Positions 1 through 17,765 of a stretch of 20,449 nucleotides of DNA are shown one piece after another. Origin of the DNA: a virus; UHGV virus genome UHGV-0200630; one strand, 5' to 3'. The notes below the pieces were generated by a model that was given only the letters and a program-made list of their open reading frames with translations, made no database searches and was not told the DNA's origin. A program made the translations under genes and the position numbers. Within the stretch, counting starts at the first letter, position 1. Each line of letters starts with the position of its first letter.

Positions 1-78
1 TGGTTTGGCGATTGATCAGATCGCACAATCCGGGCTGAGTTCCCTTTCAGTGATCTACTATTCCGCGCAGCTATTTAG
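1..78. repeat. Left terminal inverted repeat (78 bp), exact reverse complement of 20371-20448
   Basis: Read directly: reverse complement of 20371-20448 equals 1-78 base for base; identity breaks at position 79. Contains three GATC sites (14-17, 19-22, 52-55) and begins 5'-TG. Confidence 0.95.
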
Positions 79-325
79 CAAGAGTTGAACGAACAGTGGT
101 ATAAAGTTTCTGAACTTGAGCGATTTCTTTAAAAACAGGAGTTCCGTCTTCGTGTTGAATACAATTCAGAATCATTCGGTCGTTACGTTCTTCTGTGTTT
201 TCATTTTTGAAATAGAATTCACCGAATTCAGATACGGTCATAGGACGAGCATAGAATTTAAAGCCGTTGATTTCTACTGGTTCGCGAGAAGGCGAAAGAC
301 TTGCTAACATTTCATCGAAATTCAT
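71..325 (-). CDS. Hypothetical protein (84 aa)
   Basis: ORF with ATG at 325-323 and AAGGGA-like SD 8-10 nt upstream; stop codon TAG lies inside the left ITR. No recognisable family. Confidence 0.5.
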   Translation of the reverse strand: MNFDEMLASLSPSREPVEINGFKFYARPMTVSEFGEFYFKNENTEERNDRMILNCIQHEDGTPVFKEIAQVQKLYTTVRSTLAK

Positions 326-361
326 TTTTGTTTCCCTTTGTTGAGTTTTCTTTTATTTATG

Positions 362-388
362 AAAAAGGGAGCGCGAGGCTCCCTTTTG
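362..388 (-). terminator. Intrinsic terminator (bidirectional-looking) after the 105-aa gene
   Basis: Stem GGGAGC (367-372) / GCTCCC (378-383) with 5-nt loop, flanked by A5 (362-366) and TTTTG (384-388); on the minus strand the hairpin is followed by U5. Same stem sequence as the terminator at 18769-18791. Confidence 0.6.
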
Positions 389-706
389 TTATTTCCATTG
401 AAAGAAATATCCGTACATTCTGAAACCTTTGTGGATATATTCAATCATTCCTAAGTTCTTCGCTTCGGTCTCAAAAAATGGACCTTGCAGTCGAACTGTC
501 TGTCCTAATTTGAAATGACAATTAGGTTTTTTCTTCTGTGTTGAAACAATAAAAACGTTCTTATCGTTGAACAGATATTTTTTAATTCGCTTATCTTTGA
601 TGTGTTCGCAACCGTAAGGAACAGTCATTGACTCGGGATTAATCTCGTTAACGTAGATGTCGGCAAGTTCGTCTAATCTGTAAGTATCAAAATCGTGAAT
701 GTTCAT
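389..706 (-). CDS. Hypothetical protein (105 aa)
   Basis: ATG at 706-704 preceded by AAGGAGA with 5-nt spacer; ends directly at the terminator. No recognisable family. Confidence 0.6.
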   Translation of the reverse strand: MNIHDFDTYRLDELADIYVNEINPESMTVPYGCEHIKDKRIKKYLFNDKNVFIVSTQKKKPNCHFKLGQTVRLQGPFFETEAKNLGMIEYIHKGFRMYGYFFQWK

Positions 707-723
707 TTGTTCTCCTTTTGACT

Positions 724-1266
724 TTATTTAGTACCCGCAACACGCTTAACGGTTTTGAATATATCGTCAGAGATTTGATTCCATGAACCCAGAGTTTTTC
801 TTCTGTGTTGATTTTTCTTGAATACAGCAATTAAACGACGGTCTTGCTTTTTAACGTTAGTTTTAATGAGGATCGTTCGAGTTACGCCATCTTTTTTTTG
901 CTTGACAGCTTCAAGATTATTTCTTGATTTCAAGTTAGGAATGTTACCGAATTTGTTCTTTGAACCTCTTACACCAGTTGGAACAAACTTGTTAATTCCT
1001 TTGTTATCATCAATTAACGGAGCAAGATAATCAGCCTGCTTGTCTTTGATGAATATTCTATTTCGTGACCCGTTCTGATCGTATCTGAAACTGAAACCTA
1101 CTGCGTTCTTAGTGAAATTAACTGGTCCATCGACTCGTCTGTTGATTTTTCTTTGCAACTCAACAGAAGCGAGTTTAGACGCTTTGGTTACTTTCTTACT
1201 GAACACGTCAGATTCTTTGATTCGCCATTTTTCAAGGTCTTTCATAACATCTTTTGCTTTTGCCAT
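724..1266 (-). CDS. Highly basic Lys/Arg-rich protein (180 aa), possible DNA-binding or virion-associated protein
   Basis: ATG at 1266-1264 with AGGAG SD (7-nt spacer); TAATG overlap with upstream gene stop (1266-1268). Very high K/R content throughout. Function not recognised. Confidence 0.6.
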   Translation of the reverse strand: MAKAKDVMKDLEKWRIKESDVFSKKVTKASKLASVELQRKINRRVDGPVNFTKNAVGFSFRYDQNGSRNRIFIKDKQADYLAPLIDDNKGINKFVPTGVRGSKNKFGNIPNLKSRNNLEAVKQKKDGVTRTILIKTNVKKQDRRLIAVFKKNQHRRKTLGSWNQISDDIFKTVKRVAGTK

Positions 1267-1463
1267 TAGTTCACTCCTGACATCAGAAGCGTCCCAAATG
1301 TTTTTATCTGTTCTTCGCTGATAAGAATCATTTTAGGTGCTTTAATATCGAAAGCTTGCAGAACAGGAACAGCAACAGTGTTATAAGTTATAGTAACGAG
1401 AAATAGAACAATAAGATAATCTTTAGCGTGTTTTGCCAATGCTTGGAGATATTTCATTTTCAT
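1266..1463 (-). CDS. Small single-pass membrane protein (65 aa), possible lysis-associated (holin-like) protein
   Basis: ATG at 1463-1461 with AGGTGA SD; one hydrophobic helix (DYLIVLFLVTITYNTVAVPVL); overlaps the 3' end of the endonuclease VII gene by 41 nt. Real coding status uncertain. Confidence 0.4.
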   Translation of the reverse strand: MKMKYLQALAKHAKDYLIVLFLVTITYNTVAVPVLQAFDIKAPKMILISEEQIKTFGTLLMSGVN

Positions 1464-1899
1464 ATTTCACCTTTATTTGGTTTGAGTAGACTTTTTCAAG
1501 CTCCTTTTTCGTTTTAAGGTTTGAACCTGTAATAGCTTTCATCTCAGAAAGATTTTTTCGAGAGAACGCCTTCTTTAAATCAGGAATAAGTTGTGGATGC
1601 GTAGGATTGTCTGAGTAGTCTTTTTCAAGATACTGAACAAGATTCTTCAAAAACTCGATGTAGTCAATTTTCCCATCGAGACCCGAACGTTTAAACTGAT
1701 GTTTTATTCTGCCCTCTAGGACGTTTGCTTGAGCGATTAATAATCCTCTGCATCTGCCTGCGTTAGAGCCTGTTAATATATGGTCATGGTCAAGATGGGC
1801 TTTATTAACTTCATGAATCTTTATGCCAGTTAAAGCACAAAGACCTTTTTGCTTTTGAAAGAGTTCTTGCTTATAAATCGGAATCTCTTTTCTTTTCAT
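1423..1899 (-). CDS. Endonuclease VII-like Holliday junction / branched-DNA resolvase (T4 gp49 family), 158 aa
   Basis: Translation contains HLDHDH, GLL..N..EG, KHQFKRSGL.GK.DY.EFL.NL..YL..DY and FSR...SEM, matching T4 endonuclease VII as I recall it. ATGA overlap with upstream gene; AAGAGGA SD. Confidence 0.85.
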   Translation of the reverse strand: MKRKEIPIYKQELFQKQKGLCALTGIKIHEVNKAHLDHDHILTGSNAGRCRGLLIAQANVLEGRIKHQFKRSGLDGKIDYIEFLKNLVQYLEKDYSDNPTHPQLIPDLKKAFSRKNLSEMKAITGSNLKTKKELEKVYSNQIKVKYENEISPSIGKTR

Positions 1900-2180
1900 T
1901 TTCCTCTTAGAACTGCTAGGTCGATATCTAGCTTTGCTGTTCTTCCTTCTAAATTCTTCAAATCAGATTTGACCTCTCGAAATTCATCCTGTTGTCGTGT
2001 TATATCGCTTATAAGCGAAGCATCTTTTGCGTCATTAACGGCTATGCTTTTTTCGATGTCTGAGAAACGTTTCTCAAGGTCAATTCGTTTTTCATTGTTT
2101 GATTTAATTTCGGCATAAACCCAAGCCAAGAAACCTCCTAGAGCACCCAAGATGGAAATGATCAGTGCTATATCGACCAT
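1896..2180 (-). CDS. Membrane-anchored coiled-coil protein (94 aa), candidate i-spanin-like or other lysis/envelope protein
   Basis: N-terminal TM segment (IALIISILGALGGFLAWVYA) followed by charged, heptad-like region; ATG at 2180 with AAGGAGA SD (6-nt spacer). Confidence 0.6.
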   Translation of the reverse strand: MVDIALIISILGALGGFLAWVYAEIKSNNEKRIDLEKRFSDIEKSIAVNDAKDASLISDITRQQDEFREVKSDLKNLEGRTAKLDIDLAVLRGK

Positions 2181-2225
2181 CTTGAATCTCCTTTTTAAAA
2201 GACCTCCTTGTCTTTATTTAGAACG

Positions 2226-5200
2226 TTATTGTTGTTTACTGATAAAGTAAACTGCTCTTGCTGCGGTCGCATGATTCAAGTCAGCACCGTAACTCAAATC
2301 AACAGCTTGTCCCGCATAGATAATGCCTGTACCACCGTTTGAACCACTCATTGCACTGGTAACTGTTCTTACGATTTCTTGACCGTTCGACATATTAATC
2401 CATGCAGTTCCGTAGCCCCAAGCACCACCGGAATAAGTTCTGCCTGAAATCGAAAGGTTTGGAATAGAAATTACTCTGTTCCAGTTAACAGCAGGAATAT
2501 GAACTGTTGTCCACGGATCTATATGACCCATTTTGATAACGTCACCTTCAATTCTGTCAGCGTATACAGTTCCTGTGAAATAACCTGAACCGCCTCTGAT
2601 TTCACCTGCGAAATAACCAGAATCTGCTTGAATGTTACCTCTGATATTAACGTTTTGGAAAGAAGCCCAACCGTCTTTTCTGATTGTCCAACCTTGAGTA
2701 CCACCGGAAGGGAACCAGTTATCAGAAGATATTTCATAAGCAATCTGTGCTGAACCGATCTGAGCATTACCAATTTTCGCAGTAGTAATCGCACCGTTTT
2801 CAATCTTCGCGTTGTTAATAGCACCGTTTTGAATCTTAGCGTTGTTAATAGAAGCATCTGCAATCTGTGCTGAACCGATAGAAGCATTACGAATCATTGC
2901 AGAATCCATATAAACTCTGTTATCAGCGACCATAAACGGAGCAACAGCACCCGCAGGAGTATTGTTATTCGTTATAGCGATTTTATCAGCGTTAAAAACA
3001 ATACTAGACTGTTTTGAACCGTCAGGATTCTTATTAGCCAGCATACTGATACCAGCAACAACACCGTCGGCATTAGTCTGAACTGCCCATTTGCTATTAA
3101 TCGTTCCTGTTAAGTCGTCAACGCTTGCTTTTGATTCTTGACTAACTGTTGCAATAGCTGTGTTTGTTTCAGCTTTCAATTGATTAATTGAACTTGCGGT
3201 TGCTTGTCTATCATCAGCTTGAGTTTTTTCAACTTTCGTAATAGCCGAGTTAAGTTTTCCATCAAAGTTAGATTCTTGAATACTGATAGCCTGATTGATA
3301 GCGCCATTAGTTTCATTAGTAATCTGAGTATGAAGTTCGGTGTTTTTCGTCGTGATAGTCTGATTTAATTCAGTAGTAACTTTTTGCTCGGATGCTGTAA
3401 CTTTCGTATCAGTGTATTTGTTAGCGAGGTCTAATGCTTCATCGATAGCACCATCAACACGTTTATCCAAATCAAGCAAATCGTTTAACTGTTCTTTCAT
3501 ATCGTCAGTCCACGGAATATCCCATTTCATATCGATAAACTTCGATTCTGACCAAGTAATCTGGTCTTGTCCGAATACGTCATACCAAGCTGAACGAACA
3601 TAGAATTGACCATCTTCTAATGGAAAATTATCTAAGAACGGACTTGAACTTGAATAAACGTGAACAATTTCATTAAAACTCTGGTCTTTCGCAATATGAA
3701 CGATTGTGCCTTTGAAGTCAGGAACTTCAGGCTTATTATCGCGTGGGTCATTCCAAGAGCACATCAGCATTCCAGGACCATTCGAAGCTGTGAAACCTTG
3801 AATAGCAGGAGCTTGATTGTTCTTAACAGTAATAACAGCAGGATCTGACTTCATACCAGCGTGACCGTATGCAGTAACAGAAACTTTCAATTCACGACTC
3901 AGACCATTACCCAAGTTCATATTAAAGTCATATACAAAACCTAAGTCTTTAGTCTTGTAAATTACAGGACGCTGACCTTCAATTTTGATTTCGTAATATT
4001 GAAAAACTTCACCGAATGTCTGTAACGTGTCGTCAACATAGAATTTCTGTGCGCTCTGGTCGTCCCAGGCGAATTCAAATTGAGTCTTGTTAGTGGTGTA
4101 TTGATTTTCAACTGCGTTCACTAGGTGCAGTCCTGTAACGACTGGTAAGTTATACATAACCTCAGGGTTAACGTTATTGACATAAACCCAATCTGAACGA
4201 TACACAACACCAGAAGCACAAACACGAATATCAAATTTCTGATTAGGGTCAAGACTCATAATCAAGAAATAATCGCCTGATGTGAAACCTGCTTGAATCC
4301 AAGAGTTCTTACCAGCAAGACTATACTGAATATAATAACCTGCGCGATTATAATCAGGTTCAGACGTCCATTGAACTTTCAGAGTTCTTCCTAAAGCTGT
4401 TTCAGCAACTGCTTTAACTGTCAGATTCTTAGGAGCAATCAGAACAGATTTATTAGGAATGTTGCTTCCTGTGTTATCAGGGTCTTTCGCGTAGTCAAGA
4501 TTGGTATAAACTTCTTCGATATATTCAGAAGCAGTAATAGTAACGATACCAGCAGCACCTTTATTCATCGAACGATCGATATTAGTAATACGCCATAATG
4601 AATTCACAAGTTCCAGTTCAGAGAAATTAACTCTGATAACATCCCAGACCTGTGCGGTATAAGCATCAGCAGTTGAAAAACTAATAACTTGCTTTAACAG
4701 AGATTTGTTACGTTCGATTGAAGCAATTTTATCCAACTGAGATTTTGATTTCACGAATCTGTAACTGATATCTTTAGCGATAATACGTTTATCTTTCGCG
4801 ATTGTTCCATCATTTGTTACGTCAGACGGATAACGCAGAACTTGGTCAGAATAGTCAATCGACGGATCTTGATATTTCACGTTCAGAGTATTGTAATAAT
4901 TCTCAGAACCGCCATCGTTTAAGCTAACAGTACCAGCGTTAATATTATCTTCGTTGAAGTCATATTGAACAACATCAGGTCCATCGATTCTGCATGTTAC
5001 TTTACCGAAAGTCTCTGTGATAATACCGTTAAATGCACCTGCAAGCTGAGTTAAGTTTTCTTTGAATGAACCGTTCGGGTCAGTTGCACCATCAGAAAAT
5101 AAACTGTTCAGTTTTGCATATCGAGCAGCTTCTTTAAAACTATCAAGGTCGATTTTATCAATCTGAATTCCAAGACCGTATCTATCATTTGTTAGATAAT

Positions 5201-5915
5201 CAACAATCTGACTCGGACCGTTGTTCGAGGAAACGCGTTCTCCTGTGTTCAGATCTGTAATCAAACGTCCTCTAACGTCAACAGATACTTGACTGTTAGG
5301 TTGCAGGATATCAGCTTGGTTTTGAAGGTCTGAGTTACGTTTGCGCATAACAACACAACAAGCAGCGATGTTATTACCAGTAGCAGAATCAGGCCAGCCA
5401 GCATCTGAATTTCCTAGATATTTCTGAGCAAGAGTAAAAACGTGACCGTATGGCTTACCAGTTGAGAATTCAACTTCAACATATTGCTGATATTCAGCAG
5501 CGATTGAACCTTTCGGAAGAACACCGTCTTTATAAACGCCATCAAGTAAGATTTTCTGATTATCCATATAAAGGTTTTTGAAGCTATCAACTTCACCTTC
5601 ACAGATTGCAAAGATCTGAACCAAATATGTCGTATCAACGCCAACAGCTTTCCAAACGTTAATCGTACCTGTACGCTGTTCACCATAGATAATAGGAATA
5701 ACACTTGATGGATCTGACGTTGTTCCTAATGTCGTTGCTGTGTCTGTGCTGTTAAATCGGGGAACGTTCTGCGCCATCTGAGTTGACATCAAAGCAGAAA
5801 CAGCAGCAACAGCGACACCAATACCAATTGCCAAAGCAAGAGCAGCACCCGCAGCGTAAGCAGCAGCAGCCGCGGAAGCACCTGCGATAATTGCACCAAT
5901 AGCTACAATAGCCAT
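2226..5915 (-). CDS. Tail tip / host specificity protein, lambda gpJ-like (1229 aa) with atypical hydrophobic N-terminus
   Basis: Strong SD AGGAGA (6-nt spacer). Middle and C-terminal regions (e.g. FMVADNRVYMDSAMIRN..., GTVYADRIEGDVIK) resemble lambda J as I recall it, including fibronectin-III-like stretches. Residues 1-45 are an Ala/Gly/Ile-rich hydrophobic segment. Confidence 0.85.
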   Translation of the reverse strand: MAIVAIGAIIAGASAAAAAYAAGAALALAIGIGVAVAAVSALMSTQMAQNVPRFNSTDTATTLGTTSDPSSVIPIIYGEQRTGTINVWKAVGVDTTYLVQIFAICEGEVDSFKNLYMDNQKILLDGVYKDGVLPKGSIAAEYQQYVEVEFSTGKPYGHVFTLAQKYLGNSDAGWPDSATGNNIAACCVVMRKRNSDLQNQADILQPNSQVSVDVRGRLITDLNTGERVSSNNGPSQIVDYLTNDRYGLGIQIDKIDLDSFKEAARYAKLNSLFSDGATDPNGSFKENLTQLAGAFNGIITETFGKVTCRIDGPDVVQYDFNEDNINAGTVSLNDGGSENYYNTLNVKYQDPSIDYSDQVLRYPSDVTNDGTIAKDKRIIAKDISYRFVKSKSQLDKIASIERNKSLLKQVISFSTADAYTAQVWDVIRVNFSELELVNSLWRITNIDRSMNKGAAGIVTITASEYIEEVYTNLDYAKDPDNTGSNIPNKSVLIAPKNLTVKAVAETALGRTLKVQWTSEPDYNRAGYYIQYSLAGKNSWIQAGFTSGDYFLIMSLDPNQKFDIRVCASGVVYRSDWVYVNNVNPEVMYNLPVVTGLHLVNAVENQYTTNKTQFEFAWDDQSAQKFYVDDTLQTFGEVFQYYEIKIEGQRPVIYKTKDLGFVYDFNMNLGNGLSRELKVSVTAYGHAGMKSDPAVITVKNNQAPAIQGFTASNGPGMLMCSWNDPRDNKPEVPDFKGTIVHIAKDQSFNEIVHVYSSSSPFLDNFPLEDGQFYVRSAWYDVFGQDQITWSESKFIDMKWDIPWTDDMKEQLNDLLDLDKRVDGAIDEALDLANKYTDTKVTASEQKVTTELNQTITTKNTELHTQITNETNGAINQAISIQESNFDGKLNSAITKVEKTQADDRQATASSINQLKAETNTAIATVSQESKASVDDLTGTINSKWAVQTNADGVVAGISMLANKNPDGSKQSSIVFNADKIAITNNNTPAGAVAPFMVADNRVYMDSAMIRNASIGSAQIADASINNAKIQNGAINNAKIENGAITTAKIGNAQIGSAQIAYEISSDNWFPSGGTQGWTIRKDGWASFQNVNIRGNIQADSGYFAGEIRGGSGYFTGTVYADRIEGDVIKMGHIDPWTTVHIPAVNWNRVISIPNLSISGRTYSGGAWGYGTAWINMSNGQEIVRTVTSAMSGSNGGTGIIYAGQAVDLSYGADLNHATAARAVYFISKQQ

Positions 5916-6331
5916 TATTTTCTCCTGTTAAAAATTAATTCAAAATTAAAATCGTTGACGTTTATCAGTTGATATTTATTTTCATGTTCAACTAATGCTC
6001 TATTATTAAAAACGATAGATGCAACGTAATAGACACGGTTTTTATGTTTTTTCTTAATTAAGATAACCGAGCCTGTTTCTATAGTTTCTGATTTCTCAAG
6101 ATGCGTTTCACACGCTTCGAGAACGTTATTAAAACCAGTTAGCTCTTTGCAAATCTTGAGACCTTCAGGAATACTCGTGTATTTGTCTTTTAATTTGTCT
6201 GTGTATTCAGTAGCACAAACAAGGTCGATATATTCAGCAACAAGGATATTACAGTCGTTTTGACCGAAAACGTGTTGCTGATTGATATAGCGGTTAAGTA
6301 ATTTTGATAAGTCAGCTTGAAATTTAAACAT
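5915..6331 (-). CDS. Putative tail tip assembly protein with lambda gpK-like NlpC/P60 cysteine peptidase domain (138 aa)
   Basis: Immediately upstream of the J-like gene with TAATG coupling; GAGGTG SD. Motif FGQNDCNILVAEY resembles the Cys-containing motif of NlpC/P60 (lambda K C-terminal domain); later HxN/His candidates. Functional call is tentative. Confidence 0.55.
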   Translation of the reverse strand: MFKFQADLSKLLNRYINQQHVFGQNDCNILVAEYIDLVCATEYTDKLKDKYTSIPEGLKICKELTGFNNVLEACETHLEKSETIETGSVILIKKKHKNRVYYVASIVFNNRALVEHENKYQLINVNDFNFELIFNRRK

Positions 6332-6362
6332 GTTTCACCTCTGACTTTATTTAGAGCCAAAA

Positions 6363-6386
6363 AAAGACCCCTTGCGGAGTCTTTTT
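6363..6386. terminator. Bidirectional intrinsic terminator-like hairpin
   Basis: A-tract, imperfect GC stem (GACCCC/GGAGTC with TTGC loop), T5 on plus strand and U7 on minus strand; sits directly 3' of the 158-aa gene. Confidence 0.5.
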
Positions 6387-6388
6387 AA

Positions 6389-6865
6389 TTAATCACTTGA
6401 TGTCAAATCAACAACACCAGAAACAACAGGACCACCATCAACACTCAGTGTCATTGTCAGACCTTGAACTTCTGATTCACCGCCATTATGAACAGCGCTT
6501 GACAAGAAGCCGTTATAAACTTTTGCAACACCCAGTTTTTTAGTAGCATCAATCCAATAAACGATTTTAAACTGACCACGTTTACCATCTTCCGCAAGCT
6601 TAATCAGAACATCATGAACGCTTTCTGGAATATAGTTAACGGTCAAGTCGATATCAGGAACAGAGCCACGACCAACCAGTTTACGGGAGTATTTGTGAGA
6701 GAAGTTAGGAGCTGTAATAACTTCGCGTTCAATACCCGTAGAAGGGAATGCACCAGTTTCAGGAATTTCAACAAACTTTTCTGAATTCAGATCGGTGTTT
6801 GCAATTTCTGAGTTATAGAACACACTGACGTAAGAGCCAGCAAAAATATCAAATTTGTCTGCCAT
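6389..6865 (-). CDS. Putative abundant virion structural protein (158 aa), possibly tail tube/distal tail-like
   Basis: Isolated between two hairpins (6904-6926 and 6363-6386), suggesting separate high expression; AGGAAA SD. Gly/Val/Ser-rich sequence that I read as beta-rich. Family not recognised from sequence alone. Confidence 0.6.
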   Translation of the reverse strand: MADKFDIFAGSYVSVFYNSEIANTDLNSEKFVEIPETGAFPSTGIEREVITAPNFSHKYSRKLVGRGSVPDIDLTVNYIPESVHDVLIKLAEDGKRGQFKIVYWIDATKKLGVAKVYNGFLSSAVHNGGESEVQGLTMTLSVDGGPVVSGVVDLTSSD

Positions 6866-6903
6866 TTTTAATTTCCTATTTGAGTTAATATAGTTTATTT
6901 AGC

Positions 6904-6926
6904 AAAGGGGATTTCTCCCCTTTTTG
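6904..6926 (+). terminator. Hairpin with T-tract on plus strand (antisense to operon) between fiber gene and 158-aa gene
   Basis: GGGGA (6907-6911) / TCCCC (6916-6920), loop TTTC, followed by TTTTTG on plus strand; only UUUGC on minus strand. Confidence 0.4.
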
Positions 6927-9900
6927 TTATTTAGCTTCAAGTTCTTTAACGCGAGCACTTAATTCCTTGATAGCATTAACCAGCAACGCGTTTACAGCAG
7001 CAGAGTTAACACCAAGAATTTCGTCAGGTCCGAAAGAACTAACAGCTTCTGGTAATACTTCTTTCAGTTCTTGAGCAATAATACCTGCTTCACGAACTTC
7101 GAATGAATATTCAGTTTTGACTAAATCAGATTTCTTATCGTATACGTAACCAGTAAGTTTCTCGACTTTATCAACTGCGTTTTCAATTTCTTCAAAGTTC
7201 GATTTCAGACGTTTATCAGAAGTGCTAACCCATTGGATCGCATTTGCTGTTCCATTACCGAGGAATAGATAGTCTGCACCACCAATGTGAAGTGCAGCCT
7301 CGGGAGCAGAACTACCCGGATTATAAATGTCCATCGCAGCACCGTATTCTGTGCCCCAATGAACATGTTTCCAGATATTAATACATTTATCACGAGTCTG
7401 AGCTTCAACAATCATTCCCGCAGGACGATCACGCCACGCTGACCACTGCGGCCAACCGTCAACGACACCTTGAATCATCGCATTGCTTGCCCCGGTTCTA
7501 ACGTTTCCAACATAAACACCGCGAGACTCATTATGGGTGTTAATCGTAATTGACCGATCAATTGTCAAACCAGCTGTGTTAAAGGTTGCGATTTGAATAC
7601 CATTAGTAAAAATGCTTAAGTTTCCGTCCGTAACTTGTCGAATACCTGTATCGTTATCACCAAACGCGATTGAGTTTCCACCTAGTACGTTGTCCGTGTT
7701 AATACCAAAACTTGTTAAACGATTTGTTTCAACAGAAGGAGTATTAATTTTTCCAGGAACAGCAAAACGACCATCGATATCAAATTCATAATTAGCCATT
7801 TTACCGAACGTCGATTCTTCTTTCGTCCCAACACGAAGAATTCCTTTGCCCCATGAATTAGCTGGTCCTCTAATAGTTCCTAATTCAACAACAGTAGAGA
7901 ATCCGTGTCCTACGGAAACAGAGTTCATCGAATATCCGGGATAATAATCACTTTCACCAGCAACTGCTCCGAAGTTAATCTGCATAGGAGCATTTTGTCT
8001 CCATTGATTAGCGTAAGCATGATCATTGGTTGCTGCCCATCTTGCACCATCAATTTGAATTGTATTATGCTGAATATCCATCGCGGTATTAGTACCAGTC
8101 TGAACCGTCACGGATCCGTTAGTTCTAAGAGTAACACCAGATGACGTAGAGAAATCATTTCTCATATTCTGAGACCAGACAATATCGAGATTCTCACTTG
8201 TCTTGCCAAGAATCCAGGTATTATTGCGACCGTCCATATTGCCAGACATATAACTTGCCTGATTCGACGCAGGAATATTCAACTGAATAGCATTAGATTC
8301 GCCGTTGACAGAAACACCACTTGCAAGATTCAATCGACCATTGGTGTTTAATGAACCCATCCAATATTCAGGAGTATCACCATGAAACCAACATATAGAG
8401 TTATCCAGCCTATCGTCAGGATGATTAGCCATTGCCAACTCATGATAAATGGATCCAGCACCAACGGCTCTAACTTTTCTTAAATGATTTGATTGTTGCT
8501 CAGGAGTGTTCCAGTCGGGTAAGCTTTCCGAGTCATACCATCCGTAAGGCTTATTATTATAAATCGTTTTATAGAAACTTGCAGGGCCAGCAACACCAAG
8601 ACCTTCTTTAGTATCAATATAAGTTCTGCCTGAACCTCTCAGATAATGATTATATTTTCCACCATTAACTAATCCGAAATAAGTCGTGGCGTCACCAATG
8701 TTATTACCGTCGGTTGTCGTATCGATATTAATTAATGAATAACCTTCAGGAGCCATCAGATTCGAATCACCATCATCACTTCTGAAACGGAAATGAGTTT
8801 TTCTATTAAAGTAGTTTTCAGATCCTGCAATAGAAGCTGTTACAACGTTATTTGAATAGAAGTTTAACCATCCGTCTTCTCTCCATTTAAAACCAGTGTC
8901 GGAATCACCAATCGCGATAGAGTTTAAACCCAGTGAATTTCCAACGGCAAAGTTGCTTGCAACGGACATTAAAGGAGTTGTTACTGCATCAGTGATTCTA
9001 GCTTGACCTGAAATATCAATTGACATTCCTCTGCCTGTTTTTCCCCAAGTCATGGTCATTAGATCTAATGCGTCGGTTCCTTCGTTAGCATCACGACGAA
9101 ATAACAGTCGATCATCCGTATCCGTTGCGTATGCAATTTGATGAATAGTCTTTGAAGTTCTGCCGTGGTTTTCAATACTCAGAACATCACCGTTATTACC
9201 AGCAGGTGTAACTTTCAAAGTTCCTGCGTATACATTACCAGCAGCATGAACAGAAGGAACAGTTAAGTCGCCAGTCATCGTGTCGCCAGCTTTATTAACT
9301 TTGGTGTCAATCATGTCTTTCAGAGTCTGATTATCAACAGTCAAACGGTCATTAACTGCTTTAATCTTTTCGTCAGCATCAGCTTTATTCGCATCAACTT
9401 TCGTATTAATAGCCGTGTCGTTCTGGTCAACTTTTGAATTCAGATTATCAACGCGAGTGTTAATAGCAGCGTCGTTAGCATCAACTTTCTGTTCGAGTTT
9501 CGTCAGGTCAGCACTTGAACCTGTTTGAACTTTGCTGATTTCAGAATCAACGTAATCTTTACGCGTAGCGCTATCAGGAGCAACAGGAGCAGCAGGCAAA
9601 GATAACTGACCATTACCGTTAAGCACGAAGTCAGAACTCTCTCCTGTAGCTTTTCCTTTCGCTACCGTAACACGAAGTTCACCTTTAGAGTCTGTCTGAG
9701 CAGGAGAACTAATACGTGCTTTTGCTTTGTCGTGTTCATCAGCAAAAACAATATCGCTTTTATCAAGATTTTTTAAAGTCAGATTAGAATCGGATTCAAT
9801 ATCACTTGCTTTAATTTTTCCAGTAAAGGTCTGACCGCCTTCAACAACAGCATCAGCACCATTACCGATGTTAATAACAGCGTCACCGAATTTAGTAAAA

Positions 9901-10010
9901 ATCTTTTTATCGGCTAAGTTAATAGCGATTTCACCATCAAGCATGTTTTTCGCTTCTGGCTTTCTTCCGGCGACGTCTGTTCTATAATGTTTAACTTTAT
10001 TATTTGCCAT
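6927..10010 (-). CDS. Tail fiber protein with C-terminal intramolecular chaperone / Peptidase S74 autoproteolytic domain (1027 aa)
   Basis: C-terminal ~97 aa (SDKRLKSN...GIIAQELKEVLPEAV...LVNAIKELSARVKELE) match the S74 intramolecular chaperone domain of endosialidases and L-shaped tail fibers. Upstream KAGDTMTGDLTV fiber motif and Asn/Asp-rich repeats. Weak SD; start probably coupled to upstream gene. Confidence 0.85.
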   Translation of the reverse strand: MANNKVKHYRTDVAGRKPEAKNMLDGEIAINLADKKIFTKFGDAVINIGNGADAVVEGGQTFTGKIKASDIESDSNLTLKNLDKSDIVFADEHDKAKARISSPAQTDSKGELRVTVAKGKATGESSDFVLNGNGQLSLPAAPVAPDSATRKDYVDSEISKVQTGSSADLTKLEQKVDANDAAINTRVDNLNSKVDQNDTAINTKVDANKADADEKIKAVNDRLTVDNQTLKDMIDTKVNKAGDTMTGDLTVPSVHAAGNVYAGTLKVTPAGNNGDVLSIENHGRTSKTIHQIAYATDTDDRLLFRRDANEGTDALDLMTMTWGKTGRGMSIDISGQARITDAVTTPLMSVASNFAVGNSLGLNSIAIGDSDTGFKWREDGWLNFYSNNVVTASIAGSENYFNRKTHFRFRSDDGDSNLMAPEGYSLINIDTTTDGNNIGDATTYFGLVNGGKYNHYLRGSGRTYIDTKEGLGVAGPASFYKTIYNNKPYGWYDSESLPDWNTPEQQSNHLRKVRAVGAGSIYHELAMANHPDDRLDNSICWFHGDTPEYWMGSLNTNGRLNLASGVSVNGESNAIQLNIPASNQASYMSGNMDGRNNTWILGKTSENLDIVWSQNMRNDFSTSSGVTLRTNGSVTVQTGTNTAMDIQHNTIQIDGARWAATNDHAYANQWRQNAPMQINFGAVAGESDYYPGYSMNSVSVGHGFSTVVELGTIRGPANSWGKGILRVGTKEESTFGKMANYEFDIDGRFAVPGKINTPSVETNRLTSFGINTDNVLGGNSIAFGDNDTGIRQVTDGNLSIFTNGIQIATFNTAGLTIDRSITINTHNESRGVYVGNVRTGASNAMIQGVVDGWPQWSAWRDRPAGMIVEAQTRDKCINIWKHVHWGTEYGAAMDIYNPGSSAPEAALHIGGADYLFLGNGTANAIQWVSTSDKRLKSNFEEIENAVDKVEKLTGYVYDKKSDLVKTEYSFEVREAGIIAQELKEVLPEAVSSFGPDEILGVNSAAVNALLVNAIKELSARVKELEAK

Positions 10011-10022
10011 TTTCTTTATCCG

Positions 10023-11048
10023 TTAAAATACTCCTGCGTCTAAGGTTTCTCCTAACGCTACACAATTAATCTCTAATGGCGTTGGTTTATTACTTGGAGA
10101 ATAGACTTCTTTGCCTTTGACCTTGACAGAAGTTGAGTTAATTTCATTACTATTTAGAGCCAAGATTTCACCTTGTGGCGCAGAAATCTTTTTACGAACG
10201 TTCAGATATTCCTGAATAGTCAAAGATCCTTTGAGTTCTCCACCAGTAATAGGCAAAGCATTAATATCTTCAGGAGTTGGACGTTCAAGTTCTGTATAGA
10301 CTTTGACCCACGGAGATTCAGTAACAGTTTCACCGCTTTGTTGTTTGTTTCTGATTCTGATGCTTGGATTACCGACTGACGAACCAATAAGCTCCCAACC
10401 TTGACCATCAGGATGCTGAATAGCCATAGCAGACGTGCCAGAGTTATAAGGGTTATCGCTGTTTGTTGCATCGACTGTTACACATCTGTTACCAGTTAAT
10501 AATCCTAAGTCTTTAACGCCTGCGATTTCTTCTGTACCAGCACCAATACCATAATCGCCAACGTTTAACGGAACTGAGAATTCAGCAAAACCTGTAAACA
10601 ACTGACCATCAGGAGAAAGATTAAAAGTTGTTGTAACGACTGAGTTAGCCGAACCTGATGTTTCTTTCTTCGTTACATAAGCATTAAAAATATGATAAAG
10701 ACCAGCATCATTATCTTTCTTTGTTTCTCCATCGATAACATAAAGACTTCTGAATCTAAGGAGTTTCTTTTCCATAAGAGCTTCATCAAGCAACTGATAA
10801 ACTGGGTCAGAACTGTCTTCAAATAAGCTTATTGAAGTGTCGTTAATTGTTACGTCACCTGAAAGTTTCGTTGTGAAATCGGTTCTGTAATCTTCTAGTG
10901 TCTGAACTTCTTTTCTAAATCCGATAACAGGGAATGCAGCCAGTTTATCAGTGCTTACATAACCTGGGTCGTTATATCCTGGGATTTCAACGATTAGCGG
11001 ATTAACTGAAACTCTGACGTTATTTCCTACAAAAATATCGTTTGTCAT
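10023..11048 (-). CDS. Virion structural protein (341 aa), possibly major tail or fiber-associated protein
   Basis: Long ORF in the structural block, 7 nt downstream of the preceding stop. N-terminal half has a pattern reminiscent of major tail proteins; C-terminal part (PTPEDINALPITGGELKGSLTI) resembles fiber attachment regions. Family unresolved. Confidence 0.65.
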   Translation of the reverse strand: MTNDIFVGNNVRVSVNPLIVEIPGYNDPGYVSTDKLAAFPVIGFRKEVQTLEDYRTDFTTKLSGDVTINDTSISLFEDSSDPVYQLLDEALMEKKLLRFRSLYVIDGETKKDNDAGLYHIFNAYVTKKETSGSANSVVTTTFNLSPDGQLFTGFAEFSVPLNVGDYGIGAGTEEIAGVKDLGLLTGNRCVTVDATNSDNPYNSGTSAMAIQHPDGQGWELIGSSVGNPSIRIRNKQQSGETVTESPWVKVYTELERPTPEDINALPITGGELKGSLTIQEYLNVRKKISAPQGEILALNSNEINSTSVKVKGKEVYSPSNKPTPLEINCVALGETLDAGVF

Positions 11049-15881: not shown

Positions 15882-17765
15882 TTATAATCCGAAACCACGA
15901 GGCTTATTAACTGGTCTGTTTCGTTTGATAATGTTTCGACGAGGTTCATGAGTTTGAATAACAGGAGAATTTGTTTCGTTTTGTTCTTCTGGCATTTCAA
16001 TATCAGATTTAGCAGCGAGTTTCCTCCACTCGTGAAATTTGATTTTCTCTAGAACTTGCAGACGCGCGCAATAACCGTAGTTAAAGCAGTCAAGACCTTC
16101 GTTACGAACACCGCCTTGTTTAATAACCCATCTAACAGTATTACCAGAGCGTTTTAATTCTTCGGACATAAGCTGTTCGCAGTAATCATCTGGAACATCA
16201 TCAGAGATTTCGACTCTGACTGGTGTATTTCCAGATTTCACGCTTCTGTTTAGCAGTTCACGAACTAAGTTTTTTCCTTGGTTTACACCAATCATATAAA
16301 GTTCATAACCACCGGTTTTCGTGATTTTCGTTGGAACATAAGGGGCATCAACAGAGCTGGCACCTTTAATTGCTTTCAGGTTTGTCCACTGAGAGCAGAA
16401 ACGATAGATTGTTTTAGTTGCTCGACCGTTTGAGCTATCGACGTTCACCCACGCTAAAGGAACCTTTCTTCCCAAAGCTGTTCTGAACGGTGCTTTAACG
16501 TATGCAAGAAGTTCTTTATAAGCAGGGGAATCGATAACCTCAGCGTTCATTGTCATAAAGCTACGATGTGCAAGAATATAAACGGTTCGTTCGTTGTGAC
16601 CCATCAAGGTTACTTCTAAACGGTCTTGCTGTTGGTCAACCCCAGCGGTTAAAAACAACGTGTCTTCTGGTATATTGCTGATGCCGATATTCGTCTTGAG
16701 TGTTTCTAATTTACTAACCTCAATGTCTTCGTTTAAATCATCAAACGGTAGACCAAGAACAGTGTTATAAAACGTTGACAAGCTGAACGTTTGCCATGCT
16801 TGCTTATAGTCTTCAACAACTGATTTGATAGAACTCATTGGGCTGTATAAACGACTTACGTGGAATCCAGCAATTCGACTTTCAGGTTGATGAATAATCC
16901 ATTCACCTTGTTTAATTGCTCGTGCTCGGTCGCCTTCAGAGAAAGCGTGATGACATTCAGGACATTCAATTCTGGCAGAGTTAGGATCAGGTAATGATTT
17001 ACCATCGATTTTTACCCAGTCGAATTTGATATTCTCCCACGTCAGTTCGTGCTTATGACCACATGTAGGACAGGGAACATGATACTTGCGCTTGTCGGAT
17101 GCTTCATACTGCGTGTGGATAGCACCGTATTTACTTGTAGGCGTCGAGCTAATGAAAACACGAGCGTCTTCACCGAACGTCGTAGCACGTTGTTCCGCGA
17201 TGATAATCGGGTTGCCTTCTTCTGTGTCTGTTTCAACTGCGTCAACTTCATCAAGCAACATCAGCGGAAGAGTTTTACCGCGTAAGTGAGAAGGGCTATT
17301 GAGCGACATGAAATACCAAAAGCCTCCAGCACGTAGCTGAATTTGACTGGTGTTATTCACTGCGTTTCTGTCGTTCTTGTCGGTGACGATTCGTTGCATT
17401 TCTTCCGATTCGTCAATCATTGGGCGAATCTTGCCTGATAGCCATTGAGTCGTCTCTTTACCGGTTGACTGCAAGACACCAGCGTTACCGGGATCAGTAG
17501 CAGACTTATAGAACAGAATTCCGTTCAAGATGGTTGTCTTGCCAATCTGGGCAGAAGTCTCGAAGACGATTTTCTTCTTACGTTCTTTAATGACGTCAAT
17601 CATGCCTTTCTGAAACTCAAACAGTTTCATCGGCTGCCCTGTATAAGGACCATCAGGGAATTTCAGGTACTGTTCGACCCACTCGGACGGAGTGTAGTCA
17701 GGAGGTGGCATTAAAAAGCGCTTTGCATTCTGTAAGATACTTTTCAGTTTATTTGAGTTTTTCAT
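15882..17765 (-). CDS. Terminase large subunit, lambda GpA family (627 aa)
   Basis: Walker A-like FETSAQIGKTT; zinc-ribbon-like CPTCGH...ECPECHH; LTAGVDQQQDRLEV and NEGLDCFNYGY match lambda gpA segments as I recall them. First gene of the leftward operon. Confidence 0.9.
   Translation of the reverse strand: MKNSNKLKSILQNAKRFLMPPPDYTPSEWVEQYLKFPDGPYTGQPMKLFEFQKGMIDVIKERKKKIVFETSAQIGKTTILNGILFYKSATDPGNAGVLQSTGKETTQWLSGKIRPMIDESEEMQRIVTDKNDRNAVNNTSQIQLRAGGFWYFMSLNSPSHLRGKTLPLMLLDEVDAVETDTEEGNPIIIAEQRATTFGEDARVFISSTPTSKYGAIHTQYEASDKRKYHVPCPTCGHKHELTWENIKFDWVKIDGKSLPDPNSARIECPECHHAFSEGDRARAIKQGEWIIHQPESRIAGFHVSRLYSPMSSIKSVVEDYKQAWQTFSLSTFYNTVLGLPFDDLNEDIEVSKLETLKTNIGISNIPEDTLFLTAGVDQQQDRLEVTLMGHNERTVYILAHRSFMTMNAEVIDSPAYKELLAYVKAPFRTALGRKVPLAWVNVDSSNGRATKTIYRFCSQWTNLKAIKGASSVDAPYVPTKITKTGGYELYMIGVNQGKNLVRELLNRSVKSGNTPVRVEISDDVPDDYCEQLMSEELKRSGNTVRWVIKQGGVRNEGLDCFNYGYCARLQVLEKIKFHEWRKLAAKSDIEMPEEQNETNSPVIQTHEPRRNIIKRNRPVNKPRGFGL

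What the first reader, a model, noticed from the sequence alone, without database searches (positions are those of the whole stretch)
1423..1899. Endonuclease VII homolog appears to retain the catalytic motif but lack zinc-ligand cysteines
The HLDHDH and N...E catalytic positions align with T4 endonuclease VII as I remember it, but the CxxC...CxxC zinc-binding cysteines seem replaced (CALT... and LIAQAN where T4 has CNLCN). This suggests a zinc-independent variant. The gene sits at the distal end of the late operon, consistent with resolving branched DNA before packaging.
Basis: partly seen in the sequence, partly recalled or inferred. Interest (0 to 1): 0.4.

Follow-up and report, generated by a model that had tools for sequence, protein, structure and literature searches.

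The report
T4-type endonuclease VII without zinc site
An E. coli prophage gene encodes a full-length relative of phage T4's DNA-junction-cutting enzyme that keeps every catalytic residue but has lost three of the four zinc-holding cysteines; the loss is real and conserved, and similar losses occur elsewhere in the family, so it is a modest finding.

Summary
ORF 1423..1899 (-) encodes a 158-aa protein that aligns along its whole length with T4 endonuclease VII (gp49): 39% identity, phmmer E=2e-27, hhalign 99.9%. All catalytic residues are kept (T4 D40/H41/H43/R54/N62/E65 = D37/H38/H40/R51/N59/E62). Of the zinc ligands, only C23 survives (as C21). C26 is T24, C58 is I55 and C61 is A58.

This is not an error or a decaying gene:
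- 23 homologues (52-98% identity) in E. coli, Enterobacter, Klebsiella and Pantoea prophages show the same pattern.
- They sit at the same position in the tail-gene cluster.
- dN/dS is 0.02-0.2.

With the zinc columns masked, the clade nests inside the zinc-containing T4-type lineage (40/40 bootstraps), so it lost the site independently. About half of the 150 nearest 50%-identity representatives also lack the site. These include the "endonuclease VII" of jumbo phages BF and A4, with convergent C26->T/L and C61->A/V changes.

The most likely function is a late-expressed, dimeric beta-beta-alpha-Me branched-DNA resolvase whose zinc knuckle was replaced by hydrophobic packing. Zinc independence and activity are inferred, not shown. 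The gene is not at the very end of the late operon. I rate it a new variant of a known kind, of modest interest.

The parts
1423..1899 (-). CDS of the 158-aa endonuclease VII homologue (stop codon included)
   Evidence: ORF list. PF02945 41.6 bits. T4 Endo VII in PDB at E=2e-27. hhalign 99.9% over 150 columns, T4 residues 1-154. RefSeq WP_000823057.1 'endonuclease domain-containing protein' in the identical E. coli MS 115-1 locus.
1828..1839 (-). Former zinc knuckle, first half: C21-A-L-T24 (T4 C23-L-I-C26). First ligand kept, second replaced by Thr.
   Evidence: Codons TGT GCT TTA ACT read. Alignments. In 23 clade members position 21 is C in all 23 and position 24 is T in 19 and S in 4.
1780..1797 (-). 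H35-L-D37-H38-D39-H40. This is the beta-strand 1 catalytic cluster: the metal ligand Asp, the general-base His and the second catalytic His (T4 D40, H41, H43).
   Evidence: Codons read. Invariant in the clade. Roles taken from T4 mutagenesis and structures as summarised in PMC6083498 and PMC2699513.
1747..1752 (-). C50-R51 (T4 V53-R54). R51 is the conserved active-site arginine. C50 is the only other cysteine in the catalytic domain.
   Evidence: R is invariant. C is found at this position in 20/23 clade members and also in 17/73 zinc-containing relatives, including the sister P0027.
1714..1737 (-). Start of the catalytic helix: I55-A-Q-A58-N59-V-L-E62 (T4 C58-N-L-C61-N62-A-A-E65). Both cysteine ligands are replaced. 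The metal-ligand Asn and the Glu are kept.
   Evidence: Codons ATC GCT CAA GCA AAC read. Alignments. Position 58 is A in 21 and V in 2 of 23. N59 is invariant.
1423..1605 (-). C-terminal helical part (residues ~99-158) that aligns along its length with the T4 Endo VII dimerisation domain
   Evidence: PF09124 scores 18.1 bits, below the cut-off of 22. hhalign of the clade profile runs to T4 residue 154. Several clade members carry precomputed PF09124 hits. AF2 predicts helices 104-113, 117-124 and 131-147.
1896..2180 (-). Upstream 94-aa ORF (N-terminal hydrophobic helix plus coiled coil). Its TGA overlaps the Endo VII ATG as ATGA, which suggests translational coupling.
   Evidence: phrog_1009, unknown function. 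A gene of 89-105 aa occupies the same position in relatives.
1266..1463 (-). Downstream 65-aa ORF (one predicted transmembrane helix) that overlaps the last 41 nt of the Endo VII gene. It is context, not part of the enzyme.
   Evidence: Homologous ORFs are annotated or open in L008, L009, L007 and L005.

Best explanation
The gene encodes a functional T4-type endonuclease VII. This is a homodimeric beta-beta-alpha-Me (His-Me finger) nuclease that cuts branched DNA such as Holliday junctions and Y-structures.

By homology with T4 gp49, the proposed roles are:
- H38 acts as the general base.
- D37 and N59 hold the catalytic Mg2+.
- H40, R51 and E62 complete the active site.
- The C-terminal helices form the domain-swapped dimer.

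The gene is co-transcribed, and probably translationally coupled, with the late tail genes of a temperate enterobacterial prophage. It would therefore debranch replicated or recombined phage DNA at the time of packaging.

It differs from T4 gp49 in the structural Zn(Cys)4 knuckle that ties the N-terminal hairpin to the catalytic helix. That knuckle has been dismantled (C26T, C58I/L, C61A). It was most likely replaced by hydrophobic packing, because hydrophobic residues are newly fixed at T4 positions 28 (I/L/V), 58 (I/L) and 63 (V).

Shown: homology, retention of the catalytic residues, loss of the ligands, purifying selection, conserved synteny, and descent from zinc-containing T4-type ancestors.
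Inferred: nuclease activity, junction specificity, zinc independence, the hydrophobic-replacement mechanism, and the role in packaging.
For: - Homology along the whole length. The AF2 model (best pLDDT 88) matches only T4 Endo VII chains with probability 1.0 in Foldseek.
- Catalytic residues are invariant across 23 homologues and 150 representatives.
- The ligand loss is fixed in the whole clade.
- dN/dS is 0.024 for the window versus a 90%-identical prophage, and 0.10-0.20 versus homologues of roughly 60-75% protein identity.
- Gene order is the same in E. coli, Enterobacter hormaechei and Pantoea stewartii prophages: DUF6950, tail-tip J-like, small ORF, Endo VII, small ORF, ~180 aa, and so on.
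- There is an ATGA overlap with the upstream gene. No minus-strand promoter- or terminator-like site flanks the gene.
- With zinc columns masked, the clade is monophyletic and its sister group is entirely zinc-containing in 40/40 NJ bootstraps. In 39/40 the split that also holds T4 contains no other zinc-less sequence.
- Hydrophobic residues are fixed in the clade next to the old site.
- Lytic jumbo phages BF and A4 carry a single cysteine-free 'endonuclease VII' beside their gp46/47-like recombination nuclease gene. This implies that zinc-less family members can serve as the phage's resolvase.
Against: - No biochemical data exist for any zinc-less member that I could find.
- In T4, C23S and C61S each destroy DNA binding and activity (Giraud-Panis 1995, as summarised in PMC6083498). 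An Ala at the C61 position would be expected to be harmful unless compensated.
- C21 is invariant and C50 nearly so. A residual metal or redox feature is therefore not excluded.
- Only one of five AF2 models was confident (pLDDT 88 against 61-67). No coordinates were available to inspect the former zinc site.
- A position inside a tail-gene cluster is unusual for a resolvase. In lambdoid phages, resolvases normally lie in the early nin region (my own knowledge).
Confidence: 0.65

Rival explanations
1. The enzyme still binds a structural metal, or forms a disulfide, through a non-canonical site built from the retained C21 plus C50 and/or a histidine. It would then have a re-wired zinc site and not be zinc-free.
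For: - C21 is invariant in 23/23 and C50 is present in 20/23 clade members.
- The two members that lack C50 (P0004, P0006) have a Cys at the C58-equivalent position instead.
- 53/72 other zinc-less representatives also keep the first Cys.
Against: - Two ligands cannot make a tetrahedral site.
- No Cys, His or Asp is conserved in the clade that is not also present in zinc-containing T4-type relatives.
- C at T4 position 53 is ancestral. It is present in sister P0027 and in 17/73 zinc-containing relatives.
- P0005 has neither C50 nor a Cys at position 55.
- Position 53 lies five residues up a beta-strand from C58, so it is probably too far from C21. This is an inference from topology and was not measured.
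Confidence: 0.13
2. It is not a junction resolvase. It would be a different kind of His-Me nuclease that uses the Endo VII scaffold. Options are a terminase-assisting HNH (as in HK97 gp74), a free-standing homing or selfish endonuclease (as in F-CphI), or a sequence-specific or anti-competitor nuclease.
For: - The Endo VII catalytic domain is known to have been reused by the homing endonuclease F-CphI and the restriction enzyme Hpy99I (PMC6083498, PMC2699513).
- The position among tail genes is atypical for a recombination gene.
Against: - It aligns along its whole length with T4 gp49, including the C-terminal dimerisation domain. F-CphI and Hpy99I share only the catalytic domain.
- Its position is stable and syntenic across four genera, with protein identity down to 52%. 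That is not the sporadic distribution of homing genes.
- It lies about 14 kb from the terminase gene (15882..17765), not adjacent to it.
- There is no meaningful defence-system match. The only hit is PtuB at 14.8 bits, E=0.005.
Confidence: 0.13
3. It is an inactive relic, or a DNA-binding protein without nuclease activity, that lost its fold-stabilising zinc and is tolerated in defective prophages.
For: - In T4, loss of C61 alone kills DNA binding.
- Some host prophages look damaged. In MS 115-1 an IS3 element interrupts the terminase gene.
Against: - dN/dS is 0.02-0.2.
- Every catalytic residue is invariant over homologues that differ at up to 48% of positions.
- The reading frames are intact in all loci examined.
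- The terminase ORF in this window is intact, 627 aa.
Confidence: 0.05

Closest known systems
Bacteriophage T4 endonuclease VII (gp49; PDB 1EN7, 1E7D, 2QNC)
   Same: - 39% identity along the whole length (T4 residues 1-154).
- Same length (158 vs 157 aa).
- Same catalytic residues D/H/H/R/N/E.
- Same C-terminal dimerisation region.
- Both are phage-encoded, and late expression is expected for both.
   Different: - Three of the four Zn(Cys)4 ligands are replaced (C26T, C58I, C61A).
- Hydrophobic residues are gained at T4 positions 28, 58 and 63.
- It is encoded in a temperate ~35-kb enterobacterial prophage, inside the tail-gene cluster, not in a large lytic T-even genome.
Uncultured T4-type Endo VII of ~150-kb human-associated phage contigs (P0027; IMG/VR loci L022-L030)
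   Same: - It is the nearest sister in the NJ tree.
- 47% identity.
- It shares the 'AGRCRGLL' strand, including the Cys at T4 position 53.
   Different: - It keeps the full CxxC...CxxC zinc site.
- Its genes contain in-frame TAG codons that are read as Gln.
'Endonuclease VII' of jumbo phages Serratia phage BF (YP_009599742) and Escherichia phage A4 (USL83667), and ~70 other zinc-less PF02945-like representatives
   Same: - They also keep D-H-x-H, R, N and E but lack the zinc cysteines.
- The replacements are convergent: position 26 becomes T/L and position 61 becomes A/V.
   Different: - Only 22-26% identical to T4 gp49 in a MAFFT alignment; other zinc-less representatives outside the clade share roughly 30-41% with the window protein.
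- They form separate lineages in the tree.
- Many replace the first Cys by Asp.
- Position 38 is V or C, not H.
F-CphI (cyanophage S-PM2) and Hpy99I, the other characterised users of the Endo VII catalytic motif ('DHHRN' family)
   Same: They share the catalytic motif D-H-x-H...R...N (PMC6083498, PMC2699513).
   Different: - They keep the CX2-4C / CX2C zinc ligands.
- They have other domain architectures and sequence-specific targets.
- They share only the catalytic domain with T4 gp49, whereas the window protein aligns with gp49 over its full length.

Membership tests
Endonuclease VII family (Pfam PF02945 Endonuclease_7) | Significant match to the family profile above the curated threshold | tested here: met
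   41.6 bits against a gathering score of 23.6, E=1.1e-10. PHROG 423 'endonuclease VII' at E=4e-36.
Endonuclease VII family (Pfam PF02945 Endonuclease_7) | Catalytic beta-beta-alpha-Me residues: metal-ligand Asp, general-base His, second His, active-site Arg, metal-ligand Asn (T4 D40, H41, H43, R54, N62), plus E65 | tested here: met
   D37, H38, H40, R51, N59 and E62 align exactly. The first five are invariant and E62 is nearly invariant (22/23; Asp in P0001) in the clade.
Endonuclease VII family (Pfam PF02945 Endonuclease_7) | Structural zinc site CX2-4C ... CX2C flanking the DHDH cluster. PMC6083498 describes this as a highly conserved family pattern. | tested here: not met
   Only C21 (T4 C23) remains. 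T24, I55 and A58 replace C26, C58 and C61. Note that about half of the 150 nearest representatives also fail this feature. It is therefore typical of the family but not universal, and it does not override homology.
T4-type junction resolvase (gp49 orthologue group) | C-terminal helical dimerisation domain (Pfam PF09124) that aligns along its length with gp49 | tested here: inconclusive
   PF09124 scores 18.1 bits, below the cut-off of 22. However, hhalign of the clade profile aligns through T4 residue 154 at 99.9%, and several clade members have PF09124 hits on record. The dimeric state itself was not testable.
T4-type junction resolvase (gp49 orthologue group) | Phylogenetic placement with gp49 and its T-even orthologues | tested here: met
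   NJ tree with zinc columns masked. The clade groups with T4 and other zinc-containing T4-type sequences, and no other zinc-less sequence joins that split in 39/40 bootstraps. The best phage hits are Straboviridae gp49 at <=47% identity.
T4-type junction resolvase (gp49 orthologue group) | Mg2+-dependent, structure-selective cleavage of four-way junctions and other branched DNA; needed for packaging | not testable with these tools
   This needs purified protein and synthetic junctions, or a prophage knockout.
Terminase-associated HNH endonucleases (HK97 gp74 type) | Gene adjacent to the terminase/portal genes at the cos end | tested here: not met
   The gene lies between the J-like tail-tip gene and the minor-tail / chaperone-like genes. 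It is about 14 kb from the terminase ORF at 15882..17765.

The most novel reading that the evidence does not exclude
The clade is a naturally zinc-free yet fully active Holliday-junction resolvase. It arose recently from a zinc-containing T4-type Endo VII through a small, defined set of substitutions: C26T, C58I/L and C61A, plus hydrophobic gains at T4 positions 28 and 63. Jumbo-phage Endo VIIs took the same route convergently.

It would be a ready-made natural experiment on how a treble-clef zinc knuckle can be replaced by a hydrophobic plug. The change might be an adaptation of temperate gut phages to zinc-starved or oxidising hosts. The retained C21/C50 pair could act as a redox-sensitive element.
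Probability: 0.4. Interest if true: 0.45.

Novelty: new variant of a known kind. Interest (0 to 1): 0.3.

Why it matters
T4 endonuclease VII is the founding junction-resolving enzyme. Its Zn(Cys)4 site is treated as a hallmark of the family, and single C23S or C61S mutants are dead.

A close, full-length relative has dispensed with three ligands under purifying selection. Independent lineages have done the same with the same replacement residues. Together these show that the zinc knuckle is dispensable given a few compensating changes, and they point to which residues to test.

On the practical side, a zinc-free Endo VII could be a more oxidation- and chelator-tolerant mismatch/junction-cleaving reagent.

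It also records a T-even-type gene resident in a lambdoid-style prophage next to T4-like tail-fibre genes, which may indicate exchange between these phage groups; the transfer itself is my inference.

None of this changes our understanding of how such enzymes work, and loss of zinc knuckles is already known across the wider His-Me finger superfamily (PMC5714182).

Tried and rejected
- **Near-identical cultured phage.** Megablast of window 1-6000 against 50,697 phage records found only trivial 45-75-nt matches. tblastn found no phage protein above 60% identity. The lineage is known only from prophages and IMG/VR contigs.
- **C50 as a newly evolved replacement ligand.** Rejected. It is ancestral (sister P0027 and 17/73 zinc-containing relatives have it) and it is absent in three clade members.
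- **Chimera of a zinc-less N-domain with a T4-type C-domain.** Both halves are individually closest to zinc-containing T4-type sequences. The N-domain margin is small, 0.57 against 0.53 identity.
- **Misalignment hiding cysteines at shifted positions (CX4C spacing).** I counted Cys in windows around both motifs. The clade has one Cys in the first window and none in the second, except for P0004 and P0006.
- **Defence-system or NCBIfam membership.** There is no NCBIfam hit. The only PADLOC hit is 14.8 bits to PtuB.
- **Own promoter or terminator (moron-like unit).** None on the minus strand near the gene.
- **Literature.** Four full-text searches found no description of a zinc-less Endo VII. The Aravind 2000 survey (PMC110722) and the Raaijmakers 1999 structure paper (PMC1171234) are not held. 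Their content is cited only through others' summaries or from my memory.
- **Inspecting the former zinc site in the model.** The structure tool returns no coordinates, so the C21-C50 distance could not be measured.

Full report
**What is there**

Window 1423..1899 on the minus strand is an ATG-started ORF of 158 codons. A Shine-Dalgarno-like AAGAGGA precedes it. Its ATG overlaps the TGA of the upstream 94-codon ORF (1896..2180) as ATGA (sequence).

The protein matches several libraries:
- Pfam PF02945 (Endonuclease_7) at 41.6 bits, cut-off 23.6. It also gives a sub-threshold 18.1 bits to the T4 Endo VII dimerisation domain PF09124.
- PHROG 423 'endonuclease VII' at E=4e-36.
- Among all PDB chains, only T4 endonuclease VII matches: 1e7d, 1en7, 1e7l and 2qnc at E=2e-27, aligned over residues 10-122 of the query and 12-126 of T4.

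A profile of 23 homologues aligns with T4 gp49 over 150 columns, T4 residues 1-154 of 157, with hhalign probability 99.9%. An AlphaFold2 model built on that alignment has best mean pLDDT 88. The other four models were poor, at 61-67. The model finds only the T4 Endo VII chains at Foldseek probability 1.0. The low TM-score (~0.45) is expected, because the crystal protomer is an extended, domain-swapped chain.

The residue-by-residue alignments give the following.

| T4 residue | Window residue | Role |
|---|---|---|
| D40 | D37 | catalytic |
| H41 | H38 | catalytic |
| H43 | H40 | catalytic |
| R54 | R51 | catalytic |
| N62 | N59 | catalytic |
| E65 | E62 | catalytic |
| C23 | C21 | zinc ligand, kept |
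| C26 | T24 | zinc ligand, lost |
| C58 | I55 | zinc ligand, lost |
| C61 | A58 | zinc ligand, lost |

The codons can be read directly:
- TGT GCT TTA ACT at 1828..1839.
- ATC GCT CAA GCA AAC at 1723..1737.
- CAT CTT GAC CAT GAC CAT at 1780..1797.

In T4, C23S and C61S each abolish DNA binding and activity. C26S and C58S are tolerated singly but not together (Giraud-Panis et al. 1995, as summarised in PMC6083498). A survey of 313 homologues in that paper describes the CX2-4C...DHDH...CX2C pattern as highly conserved.

**It is a fixed, selected state and not an accident**

A search of 5.8 billion clustered proteins returned 24 relatives (two are fragments) at 52-98% identity. They come from E. 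coli, Enterobacter hormaechei, Klebsiella aerogenes and Pantoea.

- All full-length relatives keep the catalytic residues, apart from a conservative Glu-to-Asp change at the E62 position in P0001, and C21.
- T4 position 26 is T in 19 and S in 4.
- T4 position 61 is A in 21 and V in 2.
- T4 position 58 is L, I, V, T or H. The exceptions are two Klebsiella proteins that keep a Cys there.
- Twelve IMG/VR viral contigs of about 15-35 kb show the same pattern.

Nei-Gojobori dN/dS is 0.024 against a prophage whose 8-kb region is 90% identical at the DNA level. It is 0.10-0.20 against homologues of roughly 60-75% protein identity.

Gene order is conserved in the prophages of three genera examined (E. 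coli, Enterobacter and Pantoea): DUF6950, J-like tail-tip protein, small ORF, Endo VII, small overlapping ORF, ~180-aa protein, ~105 aa, tail-assembly-chaperone-like, then a 773-799-aa protein at the prophage end. No promoter- or terminator-like site on the coding strand separates the gene from its neighbours.

The window is 100% identical over window 76-8000 (the part of the window compared) to a prophage next to ldtB in E. coli MS 115-1. Only 7 of 5,426 complete E. coli genomes carry most of this region.

**Where the variant came from**

HMMER against 1.84 billion 50%-identity representatives found 267 relatives at E<=0.001. I aligned the best 150 together with T4 and the clade, and scored the ligand positions. 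I also counted Cys in windows around each motif, to allow for shifted spacing.

- 72 of the 150 representatives have the full CCCC or CCHC site (73 zinc-containing sequences counted once T4 itself is included).
- 72 lack one or more ligands, and most of these lack three or four.
- The rest are fragments.

The ten highest-scoring full-length relatives outside the clade (P0025-P0033 and P0035; the intervening P0034 is a fragment that keeps its C-terminal CxxC) all have the zinc site.

I built a neighbour-joining tree with the four ligand columns masked. In it the clade is monophyletic and its sister is zinc-containing in 40/40 bootstraps. In 39/40 bootstraps, the smallest split that holds the clade plus T4 contains no other zinc-less sequence.

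Both halves of the protein are individually closest to zinc-containing T4-type sequences, so there is no sign of a chimera. The N-domain margin is small. The best hits among cultured phages are gp49 of T4-like Aeromonas and Klebsiella phages, at <=47% identity.

The clade therefore lost the zinc site on its own, from a T4-type ancestor.

Other lineages did the same. The single 'endonuclease VII' genes of jumbo phages Serratia BF and Escherichia A4 lie next to gp46/47-like recombination nuclease genes and have no ligand cysteine at all. The replacements are convergent:
- Position 26 is L or T in 59/72.
- Position 61 is A or V in 48/72.
- Position 23 stays C in 53/72 or becomes D in 17/72.

**How it most likely works**

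By homology, this is a dimeric His-Me finger nuclease with H38 as the general base and D37/N59 holding Mg2+. Those roles were established for T4 and Hpy99I (PMC2699513, PMC6083498).

The zinc knuckle normally compensates for the tiny hydrophobic core of this fold, and many His-Me fingers manage without it (PMC5714182). In this clade the residues that differ systematically from zinc-containing T4-type relatives cluster at the old site:
- T24.
- G25.
- I/L/V at T4 position 28.
- I/L at T4 position 58.
- A at T4 position 61.
- V at T4 position 63.

I infer that a hydrophobic plug replaced the metal. No clade-specific Cys, His or Asp appears that could rebuild a site.

Late co-expression with tail genes fits a gp49-like debranching role at packaging. 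That role is an inference from T4 biology (PMC10956419) and is not demonstrated for this phage.

**Rivals**

1. **A residual or re-wired metal or disulfide feature using C21 and C50.** The invariance of C21 supports it, and so does an apparent swap in two Klebsiella members (C50I together with a Cys at position 55). However, C at that position is ancestral, and one member has neither Cys.
2. **A different nuclease role, such as terminase helper, homing or defence.** This is disfavoured by the full-length alignment with gp49, the stable synteny, the 14-kb distance from the terminase gene, and the absence of defence-family matches.
3. **An inactive relic.** This is disfavoured by the dN/dS values and the invariant catalytic residues.

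**Comparison with what is known, and novelty**

By homology the protein belongs to the Endo VII family and to its T4-type branch. It fails the zinc-site feature that the literature treats as a family hallmark. My survey shows that this feature is absent from about half of the family's neighbourhood in sequence space.

RefSeq already names these proteins 'endonuclease VII' or 'endonuclease domain-containing protein'. I found no paper that describes or tests a zinc-less Endo VII.

I therefore rate it a new variant of a known kind. It is of modest interest (0.3) to people who work on junction resolvases or on the evolution of metal sites.

The gene is not at the distal end of the late operon. It sits in the middle of the tail-gene cluster, with several more late genes downstream.

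Noticed in passing
window 1266..1463 (-): A 65-aa ORF with one predicted transmembrane helix overlaps the last 41 nt of the Endo VII gene and ends 1 nt into the next gene. It is not annotated in the identical MS 115-1 record. It is annotated, called or open in relatives (L008 1687..1878, L009 1684..1896, L007 8455..8628, L005 8446..8664), with a conserved YN..VP...I..P motif. It is probably a real, missed small gene.
   Followed up: partly
window 1896..2180 (-): A 94-aa protein with an N-terminal hydrophobic helix and a long coiled coil (phrog_1009, unknown function). It is apparently coupled to the Endo VII gene by an ATGA overlap. A counterpart of 89-105 aa is present in all related prophages examined. 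The architecture resembles a spanin or holin, but I did not test this.
   Followed up: no
window 1..11048 and L001 17152..20250; L005 1..12620: The order of the tail module is unusual. Major-tail-like genes, a T4 gp36/gp37-like long fibre (plus gp38-like adhesin in Enterobacter) and the J-like tip protein come first. The tail-assembly-chaperone-like genes and a 773-799-aa protein (a possible tape measure) come last, directly at the prophage end next to ldtB.
   Followed up: partly
L022-L030 (IMG/VR contigs of up to ~151 kb, several from human-associated samples), match at 3001-3354: The closest zinc-containing sister of the clade (P0027 type) is encoded with in-frame TAG codons at positions where the database protein has Gln: three in L024 and L025, two in L022. 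This indicates phages that recode TAG as Gln.
   Followed up: partly
L003 280..762 (Serratia phage BF) and L004 292..783 (Escherichia phage A4): The annotated 'endonuclease VII' of these ~355-kb jumbo phages has none of the four zinc cysteines (D-P-I-I ... D/Q-x-x-V) but an intact D-H-x-H/R/N/E set. It sits next to a gp46/47-like recombination endonuclease subunit gene.
   Followed up: partly
L001 36753..37873 and 42219..46235 (E. coli MS 115-1); window 15882..17765: In MS 115-1 the prophage terminase gene is split by an IS3 element, whereas the window carries an intact 627-aa terminase ORF. The same region of MS 115-1 also holds a retron Ec67-type reverse transcriptase/endonuclease and a TIR-domain protein.
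   Followed up: no
window 1..85: The first ~85 bases match more than 1,000 E. coli genomes at 97-100% identity. The match is on chromosomes and plasmids, and in one case lies under an IS30-family transposase annotation. It also matches two Salmonella records in the phage collection. It looks like a dispersed repeat or IS end at the window edge.
   Followed up: no
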